Assembly: GCA_010093815.1 (NCBI GenBank)
Contig: ML996573.1
From: Pseudovirgaria hyperparasitica
Taxonomy: Eukaryota
Length of the DNA: 64,000 bases
Direction: 5' to 3' (one strand)
Shown here in pieces: positions 12,307 through 23,881 of this stretch; positions within the stretch are counted from its first letter, which is position 1; each line of letters starts with the position of its first letter. Made by a program: the position numbers and the translations under genes. Below the pieces are notes generated by a model. That model made no database searches and had not been told where the DNA came from. It saw nothing but the letters and a program-made list of their open reading frames with translations.

Positions 12307-14073
12307 TCAACCTACGCGAACTCGCAGCCCGTTACTGTCCAGCTTCGACTCTGGGATAAAGAAATCGTGCTTGAACGTCACGTCGCTCGCGTCTGTCTCG
12401 AACATCTCAAAGTCGAACGATCGGAATATGCTACCCATTGTAAGAAACAGCTCCGCCCACGCCAGGCTAGAGATTTTGTCAGTCAGCAAAGTTCATGTGC
12501 ATATATGATGGGACTTACTTTATGCCGATACACGCTCGCGGACCTTTGCCCCAGGAAACGAGATAGTGATCAAGTGCTTCGCCATCAGGTGCACGTGGAC
12601 TATTAAGCCAGCGCTCCGGTATAAACTTGAACGAGTCCGGAAAGATGTTCTCATCATGGTGCACGTCTATTGTCGTCATCGAGATTGTCGTAAAAGCTGG
12701 AATGGTCCATCCGTGGAGATGCATGGGACGATCATGCTGTCGTGGATTTCTCGCGGTAATACCGTATGATAGACGTACGGCTTCCTGGATGCAAGCCTTG
12801 AGATACGGTATTTTCTCAAGTTCAAGTAGGTCAGGAACGATATCGTCCCCAGGTAAAGCGCTTTTGAGCTCCTGCTTGAGAGTCCGATGGATAGCCGCGT
12901 TGTTGATGATGTGGAATGCCCCGACCATGAGAGTAAAGGCAACTGTTGTGACACCAGCTCCGACGATGCCGAATGCCTCGTCTGTTAGGCGTGCCTTTGT
13001 CTTTTCTTCTGGAGGAAGGTCGCTGTTCAAGATCTCCTGAAATACTGTGCGCTCATATCGTTTTTCATGTGGATGGTTGCCTCGGATCACACGATCCAGC
13101 AGATCCGACAGGTTCTGTGGTCTCGTCAGTGGGATTGCTTGCTGGCTTCAGATTGAGCTCACCCTTCGAAATAGTAACAGACTTGACATCTTCGACTCCA
13201 TCATTTCGATCACTGGAGCTGGCAAGGAGAACGCAAGTGAAAAGAATGTTGGAAAGAACGTTCCGATGTGCCCCATGTCACCACTAGTCATCAATGCTTC
13301 CCGAAACGACTCGAAATTATCCTTTCCTACGTGGTTGTAGTTGAAACCGAACGCATAGTCCATGATGATGTCTCCGGTCACGGCACAGAATCCATCGCTC
13401 AGAGTGACTGGCTTACCAGCCCTGCGATATTCATGTATTCTCTCTACGAGGTGCCGAACATGTTGCTGAACGATGCCCTGAAATTCAAGGATCGACCGTC
13501 GAGAGAACCTATCGATCATGAGATGGCTAACAAAGATTGTTTTATTGTAAACCCACAGTGGATTCAACACCGCCCGTCTCTGTCGATGTATCACGTGGGA
13601 TGGCGTGGCAATCATAGCCCCTGGATTTCCAAATCGATTCTCCCAACCTGGCCTGATGACTCTCTGGTTCTTTGCGTAAAGCTCGTCATAAAATAAACTG
13701 TCTCTGACGTGCTACTCAGGGGTCAACTGGAATACATTTGCGTAGGTGACTCTATTGCAGACGCACCAACTCATCTGGGCCCACGCGTACAACAGGACCT
13801 GGTCGACAGTGAGTGTTATCATCTAACTTTGATATTATATTTCATCATACCATACTGGTCATGAAACTCCTGTATCTTTTCATAGTACGTGCCCTTTCTC
13901 ACTATCTCATAGTATGCCTCGTACCATCGTGAGACTGCTACGATCTTGTGACCAGGAAACTTGGAAAGAGGATGATAGTATAAGCGCCATACTATCATGT
14001 ACGCAACGTATGCTGCCCAGACTAGAAGCAACGATGTTGCACAGACCACTGGAGTAAGAGATATCTCTACCAT
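12307..14073 (-). CDS. Cytochrome P450 (trichodiene oxygenase/CYP58-like), multi-exon
   Basis: N-terminal TM helix + HPLSKFPG, I-helix GAGVTT, EAVR (ExxR), PERW, heme motif WGKGPRACIG; several GT-AG introns. Confidence 0.92.
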
Positions 14074-22291: not shown

Positions 22292-23881
22292 TCACAAGGG
22301 CTCCGCAACCGGGTGAACGGCCGGCTTGGCACCAAGAGGCTCGATTGGAGTGGAACTCGGAGCGGAAGGCAATGGGTCTTGTTTTGGAGCTGATGGGAAA
22401 TCTTGCTTCTTCGGAGCTGGGTTTGGCGAAGTAGCGCGGCCCATTATTCCTTGCGCCTTGGAAGAATACTCCCCAGCATAGTTCTTGATGGTCTCTGAAG
22501 CTCGGCCAGTGTGCTGAGCGGCAAGATCCTTAAATTGACTGGCCTGCGCTCCGACAACTTCACGCCCCTTTGCCAGTTGAGAATCGATAAGCTCCTGGTT
22601 TGAGATGTAGATCAAAGGTCCCATGTACAAGACAGTAGTTCCGATCAAAGAGAGGCCCCAGAGCGGTGTGAACTTGATGAGCCAGTATGCGAGGAGAGCG
22701 GACACAAAGGACTAGATTGAGTTGTTAGTAATAAGAACAAGGCTTCGCATGGGTGTACAGCATACAGCACCAGTAGCATAAAGATTCTCAGCGAAGACTA
22801 TTCGCTGGAATTCAATGACGAAGAAGTTGATGAACTGCTCAACATCGTCTAGAAGGCGCTCAAGGGAAGCCTTGGGGATGGTAAAATACTTCTTCGGGCG
22901 CATCTGTGAGGTCAACCCATTGCCGAAGACAAGTTTTCCAGCACCTTCTGCAGTCGCGGTCACTATTGCCATTAGTCAAGTCCTTTGCTATTACTGCCTC
23001 CACACTGAACATACAGCCAAGAACGATGTAGATTCCCTTGAAGATATAGCGGAAGATAGGAAGATATCTGGCCATGAAGATGAAGGTGACAGCGGCGGCA
23101 TACGAGATGGCGGTAGCACGAGGATTCTTCCACTACCCCGAGTTAGTGATATATGCTAAGTTGCCTATAACTATGACCACTTACGCTCAACAGACGGTAG
23201 AACATGGAGTGGTAGTCTAAAGATTGGTAAGCTGGTGTGACCATAAACAGCACTTCATTTGTGGCTCACGAGTCAAGGGCTGTCCTGTAGCTGCCGGCTG
23301 ATCAGGAGTTTGACGCGAAGCTGCAAGATCCGCAAATTCATTCTTGGTGATAGCGCTTTGCTCCTTGACATTCTGGCCAACAGGACCTTTTTTCAAATCA
23401 GTATATGCACTACGAAATTTGGTAAAGGCAATCTGAGAACCATTGTCAGCTTGGGCTCGTATGAAAGGGTATATCCGTTGCATGAACATACCTCACCGCC
23501 AACAATGGCATCCTTCGCGCTCTGCGTGGTTGGGTGGTTGTTTACGGCACTCATGGTCGACTGGGCGGCTGGGTTGAGGGTTAATGAGATTCAAAAGGAG
23601 AGGTCGTCGGAGAGGTGCAGATAAGACTGTGATGCAACCGGAGTTAGCTGGGGCTCGGCAAGTAACAACAGGGATAATGGAGCTCTCACCTCACAAGCTA
23701 ACAAGCTGTCTTTGAAGTTTGTGACACCGTTCGAGGAGGAGGTAGCACCGTCAAGTTGAGCAGGAGCAGGAGTAGAAGTGTTGGTGATGGAGTCGGAGGA
23801 AATTGTATCAGATGGGACTGTGTCGGAGGGAACTGTGTCGGATGTGTCGTGGACGTCCACGTCAGGACGAGGTTCGGCCAT
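22292..23881 (-). CDS. Reticulon-like protein (RtnA/Cwl1-type)
   Basis: Exons 23881-23695, 23568-23497, 23386-23270, 23216-23185, 23132-23015, 22962-22766, 22711-22292 give ...GPVGQNVKE...GQPLTHYHSMFYRLLSWKNPRAT...NFFVIEFQRIVFAEN...PLIYISNQELID (reticulon domain). Confidence 0.92.
23387..23496 (-). other. Predicted [D5,6] stwintron 2 of the reticulon gene
   Basis: GTGAG|GTATGT..GCTGAC..CAG|A: removing the 59-nt internal intron (23491-23433) creates donor GTGAGA of a 51-nt external intron (ACTGAT..AAG ending 23387). Confidence 0.72.
23569..23694 (-). other. Predicted [D5,6] spliceosomal twin intron (stwintron) 1 of the reticulon gene
   Basis: GTGAG|GTGAGA..GCTAAC..CAG|T: removing the 63-nt internal intron (23689-23627) creates donor GTGAGT of a 63-nt external intron (ATTAAC..CAG ending 23569). 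Confidence 0.8.

What the first reader, a model, noticed from the sequence alone, without database searches (positions are those of the whole stretch)
23387..23694. Two tandem donor-disrupted nested introns ([D5,6] stwintrons) in the reticulon gene
Seen: both of the first two intervening sequences start GTGAG immediately followed by a second donor (GTGAGA; GTATGT), and each holds two branch-point/acceptor sets. Excising the inner introns (63 and 59 nt) fuses GTGAG to T or A, creating donors GTGAGT and GTGAGA for outer introns of 63 and 51 nt. Both are phase 1 and the final product restores ...LLA-S-AQSTMSAV...IVG-G-PVGQNVK. Removing only inner intron 1 hits a TGA after 11 codons, so a second step (or another route) is needed. 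Known: a donor-disrupted stwintron has been described in the reticulon-like gene of Aspergillus and other Pezizomycotina. Inference: here there are two in series, i.e. four ordered splicing reactions in about 300 nt, which gene predictors would miss. I cannot tell whether the double arrangement is already published.
Basis: partly seen in the sequence, partly recalled or inferred. Interest (0 to 1): 0.88.

Follow-up and report, generated by a model that had tools for sequence, protein, structure and literature searches.

The report
Two known-type nested introns, reticulon gene
The first two interruptions of this fungal reticulon-like gene are real intron-within-an-intron structures, but the same double arrangement in this gene was published for related fungi in 2019, so this is a new example and not a new phenomenon.

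Summary
On the minus strand, the reticulon-like (rtnA) gene has two intervening sequences, IS1 (23694-23569, 126 nt) and IS2 (23496-23387, 110 nt). Each begins GTGAG followed at once by a second donor, and each holds two branch-point/acceptor sets. The published [D5,6] stwintron search motif hits the 64-kb window exactly twice, at these two elements. Spliced contigs in two runs from one sample join 23695^23568 and 23497^23386 exactly as predicted. The gene product matches a Pseudovirgaria hyperparasitica protein (Dothideomycetes, Acrospermales). Kavalecz et al. 2019 (PMC6616335) already report a second [D5,6] stwintron at this position in many Dothideomycetes. They confirmed both experimentally in Helminthosporium solani. 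Twenty of 80 metagenome loci show the same double arrangement. Two-step splicing was not shown for this species; it is inferred from homology. New here: the public 397-aa gene model keeps the 51-nt outer intron of IS2 as coding sequence, whereas the RNA-supported product is 380 aa. IS1 also carries deeply conserved blocks outside the splice signals. Verdict: a real new member of a known kind, of low novelty.

The parts
22292..23881 (-). Coding region of the reticulon-like (rtnA) gene, ATG 23881 to stop 22292. It has 7 exons of 187, 72, 117, 32, 118, 197 and 420 nt, and the RNA-supported product is 380 aa.
   Evidence: Gene model. All six junctions are joined in spliced contigs. PF02453 matches exons 6 and 7. 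The product is 100% identical over the last exon to P0001, which a source names as a Pseudovirgaria hyperparasitica protein.
23695..23881 (-). Exon 1 (187 nt); it ends ..TTAGCT T, phase 1.
23569..23694 (-). IS1: complete [D5,6] stwintron candidate, 126 nt, phase 1.
   Evidence: Matches the published motif over its full length. All 126 nt are skipped in the contigs.
23627..23689 (-). Inner intron of IS1, 63 nt: donor GTGAGA, branch-point motif GCTAAC (23648-23643), acceptor CAG.
   Evidence: The donor and CTAAC are invariant in 15 of 15 aligned sequences.
23569..23626 (-). 3' part of the outer intron of IS1 (58 nt). With GTGAG 23694-23690 it forms a 63-nt intron: donor GTGAG|T, branch-point motif ATTAAC (23585-23580), acceptor CAG. 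It begins with the conserved block TCTTATCTGC (23626-23617).
23497..23568 (-). Exon 2 (72 nt), encoding (S)AQSTMSAVNNHPTTQSAKDAIVG.
   Evidence: The motif is conserved in orthologues.
23387..23496 (-). IS2: complete [D5,6] stwintron candidate, 110 nt, phase 1.
   Evidence: Matches the published motif over its full length. All 110 nt are skipped in the contigs.
23433..23491 (-). Inner intron of IS2, 59 nt: donor GTATGT, branch-point motif GCTGAC (23450-23445), acceptor CAG. This is the only part of IS2 that the public gene model removes.
23387..23432 (-). 3' part of the outer intron of IS2 (46 nt). With GTGAG 23496-23492 it forms a 51-nt intron: donor GTGAG|A, branch-point motif ACTGAT (23402-23397), acceptor AAG. 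If retained it is in frame and free of stops (17 extra residues).
   Evidence: The insert is absent from 12 of 12 aligned orthologues.
23270..23386 (-). Exon 3 (117 nt); it begins (G)PVGQNVK.
22712..23269 (-). Remainder of the split region: canonical introns 3-6 (23269-23217 of 53 nt, 23184-23133 of 52 nt, 23014-22963 of 52 nt, 22765-22712 of 54 nt) with exons 4-6 between them.
   Evidence: Skips of 53, 52, 52 and 54 nt in the contigs.

Best explanation
This is the rtnA (reticulon-like protein) gene of a Dothideomycete; a source names the identical protein as Pseudovirgaria hyperparasitica. Its first two intervening sequences are the orthologues of the two donor-disrupted [D5,6] spliceosomal twin introns described for rtnA in Dothideomycetes. 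In each, a short canonical U2 intron (63 or 59 nt) sits between the 5th and 6th base of the donor of a second short intron (63 or 51 nt). By intron definition the spliceosome first pairs the inner donor (GTGAGA or GTATGT) with the nearest branch point and acceptor. Removing the inner unit joins GTGAG to T or A and so creates a consensus donor (GTGAGT or GTGAGA). That donor is then paired with the distal branch point and acceptor. Shown here: the sequence architecture, the exact mature junctions, positional orthology and conservation. Inferred here: the two-step order in this species, by homology with species where intermediates were cloned.
For: (1) Both IS match the authors' own [D5,6] search motif over their whole length, and these are the only 2 matches in the 64 kb (motif read, scan).
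(2) Contigs of runs X1 and X2 (one sample, one study; kind not on record) join all six junctions with GT..AG ends, including 23695^23568 (skips 126) and 23497^23386 (skips 110), with no other letters.
(3) The four other introns of the gene are 52-54 nt. The two IS are about twice that and divide into units of 63+63 and 59+51 nt.
[quoted passage not shown] It states that a second one at position 2 is predicted in many Dothideomycetes, Xylonomycetes and Lecanoromycetes, and that both were shown experimentally in Helminthosporium solani.
(5) Of 80 metagenome loci, the start of exon 3 was located in 70. Of these, 20 carry two abutting-donor sites at about 100-114 and 291-318 nt upstream, 3 carry only the proximal one, 18 carry only a distal one, and 29 carry none (transcript-like or truncated).
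(6) In alignments of the window with distinct loci, the outer GT, G5 and the inner GT are invariant. This holds in IS1 for 15 of 15 sequences. In IS2 it holds for 17 of 17 intron-bearing sequences.
(7) The base after the inner acceptor of IS1 is T in 14 of 15 by my parser and in 15 of 15 by the alignment.
(8) Three transcript/genome pairs among the loci (L012/L018 at 100%, L026/L074-75 at 100%, L010/L076-78 at about 97%) lack both whole IS in the transcript.
(9) One otherwise spliced metatranscript contig, L008, keeps 48 nt GTGAG|A...CAG with in-frame stops exactly at IS2. It aligns to the outer introns of relatives with a gap over their inner intron.
(10) The mature reading ..DAIVGGPVGQNVK.. 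aligns without a gap to 12 orthologues.
Against: No splicing intermediate or lariat was observed for this organism, so the order of reactions rests on homology. In IS2 of relatives the base after the inner acceptor is G in 3 of 15 and C in 2 of 15. A GTRWGG donor is therefore evidently tolerated, and direct one-step use of the window's GTGAGG donors cannot be excluded from sequence alone. The strict published motif fits only 3 of 14 relatives' IS1 and 3 of 14 relatives' IS2, so the motif match of the window is not by itself diagnostic. L008 has no same-species genomic locus (best about 82% identity), so it could be plain retention of a canonical 48-nt intron. The spliced contigs come from one sample only. 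The Lipomyces paper (PMC7138796, passages) shows that abutting donors can also be handled by one standard reaction.
Confidence: 0.8

Rival explanations
1. Each IS is one long canonical intron (126 and 110 nt) removed in a single reaction from the 5'-most GTGAGG donor to the distal acceptor. On this view the inner splice signals are cryptic or vestigial.
For: The mature junctions are equally compatible with one step. A G at donor position 6 occurs after inner excision in 3 of 15 relatives' IS2, so such donors can work. L. starkeyi uses abutting donors alternatively in one reaction (PMC7138796 passages).
Against: The inner donor abuts position 5 in every intron-bearing relative aligned. The inner branch point CTAAC and the CAG|T junction of IS1 are invariant across diverged loci, which is hard to explain for unused signals. 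Intermediates were cloned for the orthologous elements in other species, including both IS in H. solani (PMC6616335). The other introns of this gene are 52-54 nt.
Confidence: 0.12
2. The public annotation is right for IS2: only the 59-nt GTATGT...CAG intron is removed, and the following 51 nt are coding, giving a 397-aa protein with 17 extra residues.
For: P0001 (397 aa) equals exactly this translation. The 51 nt are in frame and free of stops.
Against: The contigs of X1 and X2 skip all 110 nt. None of 12 aligned orthologues has the insert, and the conserved ..NGPV.. motif is restored only by full removal. In the relative L008 the corresponding 48 nt carry in-frame stops.
Confidence: 0.04
3. 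The abutting donors are tandem alternative 5' splice sites 5 nt apart, giving two mRNAs, rather than nested introns.
For: Two donor-like hexamers lie 5 nt apart in both IS.
Against: Using the downstream donor with the distal acceptor would leave 5 extra nt and shift the frame. No such form is in the contigs, which show only the upstream junction. This reading also ignores the conserved internal branch-point/acceptor sets.
Confidence: 0.03

Closest known systems
The two [D5,6] stwintrons of the rtnA (reticulon-like) gene in Dothideomycetes, confirmed experimentally in Helminthosporium solani (Kavalecz et al. 2019, Sci Rep 9:9940, PMC6616335; outline, section 4 parts 1-2, sections 15-16 and passages read)
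   Same: Same gene family (PF02453). Same two intron positions (1 and 2) and both phase 1. The inner intron sits between donor bases 5 and 6. The gene has six intervening sequences in total. Both IS are absent from the mature mRNA.
   Different: The species and order (Pseudovirgaria hyperparasitica, Acrospermales) are not named in the main text of that paper (0 occurrences). Its Supplementary Table S1 could not be opened, so the species may or may not be listed there. Intermediates were not shown here.
The single position-1 [D5,6] stwintron of rtnA in Aspergillus nidulans AN5404 and other Pezizomycotina (same paper)
   Same: IS1 is the positional orthologue, with the same nesting and a two-unit size (75+76 nt in A. 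nidulans, 63+63 nt here).
   Different: A. nidulans has a canonical intron at position 2; here position 2 is also nested.
The [D6,7] 'stwintron sensu lato' of Lipomyces starkeyi rtn (PMC7138796; abstract and passages read)
   Same: Abutting donor elements at the 5' end of the first intervening sequence of the reticulon-like gene.
   Different: There the donors abut after base 6, so both are complete. The sequence is also spliced in one reaction, giving a 6-nt longer mRNA. Here the outer donor is completed to consensus only after the inner excision.
[D1,2] sister stwintrons of Hypoxylaceae (PMC9024468, PMC8469720, PMC12403724; search listings and abstracts only)
   Same: Nested U2 introns removed consecutively.
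   Different: They are nested between donor bases 1 and 2, are sequence-similar copies spread over many genes, and are recent. The rtnA elements are ancient and position-conserved. I found no support that IS2 is a copy of IS1.

Membership tests
[D5,6] stwintron (Kavalecz et al. 2019) | An internal intron donor starts immediately after base 5 of the external donor (GTRWG|GTRWGH). | tested here: met
   GTGAG|GTGAGA at 23694-23684 and GTGAG|GTATGT at 23496-23486.
[D5,6] stwintron (Kavalecz et al. 2019) | The internal intron has its own branch-point motif (DYTRAY) 4-24 nt before an HAG acceptor and is at least 42 nt long. | tested here: met
   GCTAAC...CAG in 63 nt, and GCTGAC...CAG in 59 nt.
[D5,6] stwintron (Kavalecz et al. 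2019) | Removing the internal intron rebuilds a consensus donor GTRWGH for the external intron. | tested here: met
   GTGAG+T and GTGAG+A. Before excision, base 6 is G, which lies outside the H of the motif.
[D5,6] stwintron (Kavalecz et al. 2019) | The external intron has its own branch point and acceptor and is a viable length. | tested here: met
   ATTAAC...CAG in 63 nt, and ACTGAT...AAG in 51 nt.
[D5,6] stwintron (Kavalecz et al. 2019) | The whole element separates coding sequence and is absent from the mature mRNA. | tested here: met
   Contigs of X1 and X2 skip 126 and 110 nt exactly. The frame is restored.
[D5,6] stwintron (Kavalecz et al. 2019) | A splicing intermediate exists with the internal intron gone and the external intron still present. 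| not testable with these tools
The only related evidence is a candidate intermediate at IS2 in a relative's transcript contig, L008.
[D5,6] stwintron (Kavalecz et al. 2019) | [quoted passage not shown] | tested here: met
   20 of the 70 metagenome loci in which exon 3 could be placed have both sites. Alignments A2 and A3.
Reticulon-like protein RtnA (Pfam PF02453) | Reticulon domain. | tested here: met
   Exon 6 scores 30.0 bits and exon 7 scores 30.3 bits, on consecutive profile parts 62-106 and 110-156; each piece alone is just below the 31.8-bit cut-off. PF02453 is precomputed for the identical full-length P0001 and for 40 further hits.

The most novel reading that the evidence does not exclude
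The blocks of IS1 that are invariant across diverged Dothideomycete loci but are not splice signals are functional cis-elements. These blocks are TTGCCGAG, 23661-23654, upstream of the inner branch point, and TCTTATCTGC, 23626-23617, directly after the inner acceptor. They might enforce the order of the two splicing reactions, or they might act as an intronic regulatory site. From memory, the opposite strand of TCTTATCT reads AGATAAGA, which fits the fungal GATA-factor consensus. A weaker variant of this reading is that the in-frame, stop-free 51-nt outer intron of IS2 is sometimes kept, giving a 397-aa isoform.
Probability: 0.2. Interest if true: 0.5.

Novelty: new member of a known kind. Interest (0 to 1): 0.25.

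Why it matters
The finding adds little to principle. Two [D5,6] stwintrons in series in rtnA of Dothideomycetes were published and experimentally confirmed in 2019.

What it does add:
- It adds an instance in an order (Acrospermales) that the paper's main text does not list. There the second stwintron is named for Pleosporales, Hysteriales and Botryosphaeriales.
- It corrects the public gene model, from 397 aa to 380 aa. The deposited model is the translation of the predicted IS2 splicing intermediate, a concrete example of how nested introns mislead annotation.
- Environmental contigs show that the double arrangement is common and its signals are conserved.
- IS1 carries conserved non-splice-site blocks that the 2019 main text does not mention.

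Tried and rejected
RNA evidence for intermediates:
- The look-up of sequencing runs listed no holder on record as RNA. The two listed runs, of unrecorded kind, were laid.
- Each gave one contig, carrying the mature form only. Contigs drop rare variants, so the lack of an intermediate says nothing.

Resources that were not available:
- No whole genome is held for this window, so no genome-wide intron statistics could be made.
I could not see whether this species is in Table S1, nor the H. solani sequences.
- The search of earlier findings returned nothing.

Is IS2 a duplicate of IS1?
- Within-genome IS1/IS2 alignment scores exceeded all segment shuffles (sum 152 against 84.3 +/- 14.1; 0 of 300 shuffles reached it).
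- Against a real-intron control, however, the excess is small. Inner1-inner2 scored 0.086, against 0.058 and 0.052 for the inner introns versus intron 3, and it was higher in only 10 of 15 related, non-independent genomes.
- The idea was rejected as unsupported.

Other checks:
- Conserved RNA structure in IS1: RNAalifold gave -1.01 kcal/mol, 7 pairs and 0 compensatory changes. Rejected.
- The other 4 GTRWGGTRWGH hits in the window (13855, 19870, 36974, 51839): the first is an exon end plus a simple intron of a P450-like gene, and the others lie in sequence with no open frame. None is a stwintron.
- A same-species genomic partner for L008: none found (best about 82% identity).
- My first model of intron 6 was 3 nt off; it was corrected from the contig joints and rechecked.
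- My parser misplaced the inner acceptor of L018 IS1, and an earlier version misplaced that of L014 IS2. The alignments were used instead.

Full report
**What is in the sequence.** Read on the minus strand, an open frame starts at ATG 23881 and stops being readable at 23695. The text there is ..TTAGCT T|GTGAG|GTGAGA. Extracting the pieces by coordinate gives the following:
- IS1 is 23694-23569, 126 nt. It holds an inner unit 23689-23627 (63 nt, GTGAGA...GCTAAC...CAG). The outer unit is GTGAG plus 23626-23569 (63 nt, rebuilt donor GTGAGT, ATTAAC...CAG).
- IS2 is 23496-23387, 110 nt. It holds an inner unit 23491-23433 (59 nt, GTATGT...GCTGAC...CAG). The outer unit is GTGAG plus 23432-23387 (51 nt, rebuilt donor GTGAGA, ACTGAT...AAG).

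Both IS are phase 1, and full removal gives ..SLLASAQSTMSAV..DAIVGGPVGQNVK... Removing only inner intron 1 meets a TGA 11 codons past the junction. Removing only inner intron 2 stays in frame with no stop, adding 17 residues.

**Is it more than chance?** The authors of the [D5,6] class published the motif they screen genomes with (PMC6616335, Methods). Run over both strands of the 64-kb window, it matches twice, and the two matches are exactly 23694-23569 and 23496-23387. In 200 first-order Markov simulations of the window the mean was 0.135 matches, and 4 of 200 had two or more. The bare pattern GTRWGGTRWGH occurs 6 times against 1.72 expected. The four other hits are an exon end plus an ordinary intron in a P450-like gene, and three places without an open frame.

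**What the gene is and whose it is.**
- Exons 6 and 7 hit consecutive parts of Pfam PF02453 (Reticulon), at E 5.8e-07 and 4.6e-07.
- The last exon is 100% identical to P0001, a 397-aa protein that its source names 'hypothetical protein EJ05DRAFT_501256 [Pseudovirgaria hyperparasitica]'.
- That species is placed in Dothideomycetes, Acrospermales.
- The next-best relatives are 44-58% identical and come from Dothideomycetes, lichen-forming fungi and Eurotiomycetes.

**RNA-level evidence.**
- Two coded runs, X1 and X2, hold 63% of the sampled words of the gene region. They come from one sample and one study, and their kind is not on record.
- Each run has one contig (3467 and 3692 nt) lying on the gene without a single differing letter.
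- The contig skips six stretches with GT..AG ends: 54, 52, 52, 53, 110 and 126 nt.
- The last two are the predicted mature junctions, 23497^23386 and 23695^23568.
- I infer that the contigs derive from transcripts. This counts as one independent observation.
- It proves that each whole IS is removed. It does not show whether that takes one step or two.

**The public gene model.** P0001 equals, letter for letter, the translation in which IS1 is fully removed but only the inner 59 nt of IS2 are taken out. The RNA-supported product is 380 aa. The 17-residue insert is absent from 12 of 12 aligned orthologues, and the conserved ..N-G-P-V.. motif is only restored by full removal. Two other public models (P0025, P0028) carry unique inserts at the IS1 position, which probably reflects the same problem.

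**Relatives.** A metagenome scan with the protein alignment returned 80 loci. I could place the start of exon 3 in 70 of them:

| Class of locus | Number of loci |
|---|---|
| Two abutting-donor sites, about 100-114 and 291-318 nt upstream | 20 |
| Proximal site only | 3 |
| One more distal site only (IS1; position 2 empty or canonical) | 18 |
| None (mostly spliced transcript contigs or truncated) | 29 |

I chose 14 distinct double-site loci after seeing this census and aligned them with the window.
- IS1: the outer GT, G5 and the inner GT are invariant, as is the inner CTAAC. The inner acceptor is followed by T in all 15 by alignment; my parser gave 14 of 15 because it misplaced L018.
- IS2: alignment A3 holds the window, 16 genomic loci and the transcript L008. 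The outer GT and G5 are invariant, and the inner GT is present in all 17 intron-bearing rows.
- IS2 base after the inner acceptor: A in 8, G in 3, C in 2 and T in 2 of 15.
- Sizes in relatives: IS1 116-137 nt and IS2 101-115 nt.
- The strict published motif fits only 3 of 14 relatives for each IS, so relatives are often less canonical than the window.
- Three transcript/genome pairs (L012/L018, L026/L074-75, L010/L076-78) show both IS wholly removed.

**A candidate intermediate.**
- L008 is a transcript-like contig. IS1 is gone, and the residues spanning introns 3 and 4 are contiguous.
- It keeps 48 nt, GTGAG|A...CAG, with in-frame stops, exactly at IS2.
- In the alignment it lines up with the outer introns of relatives and has a gap over their inner intron.
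- That is what the IS2 intermediate should look like.
- No genomic locus of the same organism was found (best about 82% identity). Retention of a simple 48-nt intron therefore cannot be excluded.

**What is known.**
- A search for 'stwintron' plus 'reticulon' found 4 papers.
- In PMC6616335 I read the outline, section 4 parts 1-2 (not part 3), sections 15 and 16, and passages.
- It reports the position-1 [D5,6] stwintron in almost all Pezizomycotina among 754 mined orthologues.
[quoted passage not shown] Within Dothideomycetes it names Pleosporales, Hysteriales and Botryosphaeriales.
- It states that both were shown experimentally in Helminthosporium solani.
- The double arrangement is therefore in print.
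- Neither 'Pseudovirgaria' nor 'Acrospermales' occurs in that main text. Its Table S1 could not be opened.
- Searching 'stwintron' from 2019 on found 9 papers. 'Pseudovirgaria hyperparasitica' found 21 papers, 15 of them listed. No paper appears in both listings.
- PMC7138796 (passages) shows that abutting donors in a Lipomyces rtn gene can also be spliced in one reaction. This keeps the one-step rival alive.

**Mechanism and confidence.** I put 0.8 on two consecutive U2 reactions per IS, inner unit first, as in the experimentally studied orthologues. I put about 0.12 on mainly one-step removal from the GTGAGG donors. A few percent goes to the annotated 397-aa form being a real product, or to simple alternative 5' sites.

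**Side observations.**
- IS1 is unusually conserved for an intron, with mean column identity of 61% across 15 sequences. It has invariant CCGAG and TTATC cores within the blocks TTGCCGAG and CAG|TCTTATCTGC.
- No conserved structure explains this.
- A test of whether IS2 is a copy of IS1 gave no convincing support once a real intron was used as the control.

**Verdict.** It is a new member of a known kind, so interest is low. The main practical yield is a corrected gene model.

Noticed in passing
window 23661-23654 and 23626-23617 (minus strand); alignment A2: IS1 has blocks conserved across 15 diverged sequences that are not splice signals: TTGCCGAG upstream of the inner branch point, and TCTTATCTGC right after the inner acceptor (CCGAG and TTATC are invariant). 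RNAalifold finds no conserved structure. From memory, the opposite strand of the second block fits a GATA-factor site. The strings cttatc and cuuauc do not occur in the main text of PMC6616335.
   Followed up: partly
window 23387-23432 (minus strand); protein P0001: The public 397-aa model of this gene translates the 51-nt outer intron of IS2 as 17 residues. Spliced contigs and 12 of 12 orthologues say the product is 380 aa.
   Followed up: yes
proteins P0025 (Pseudopithomyces chartarum) and P0028 (Plenodomus lingam), alignment A1 columns 75-100: Both public models carry unique inserts of about 20-26 residues exactly where IS1 lies. They are probably mis-called stwintrons in those annotations.
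   Followed up: no
L008:277-324: A metatranscriptome contig, otherwise spliced, keeps 48 nt GTGAG|A...CAG with in-frame stops at the IS2 position. It looks like the predicted IS2 splicing intermediate of a relative, but no same-species genomic locus was found.
   Followed up: partly
loci L014, L018, L036, L037, L040, L043, L044, L070, L074, L076, L079, L080: 12 of the 15 sequences with both stwintrons lack the intron at position 4 (between ..RLLS and WKNPRAT..). The window, L049 and L073 have it. L026 is a transcript contig that has lost both stwintrons but still holds intron 3.
   Followed up: no
L045:~390-590, L046, L047: In this group IS2 has abutting donors, but IS1 begins GTAAGAGTGGGT with no abutting donor. 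The TCTTATC block there lies before the CAG and not after it. This looks like a remodelled first intervening sequence.
   Followed up: no
window 13845-13855 (minus strand): GTATGGTATGA here is the end of an exon (..EFHDQYG) plus a simple GTATGA intron of a P450-like gene (..PVVRVGPDEL follows). It is not a nested intron.
   Followed up: partly
window 22150 downstream and 24050 upstream: The spliced contigs (3467 and 3692 nt) run on beyond both ends of the stretch laid. They extend about 1.9 kb past 22150 in the downstream direction of the gene, so they may merge with a neighbouring transcript.
   Followed up: no
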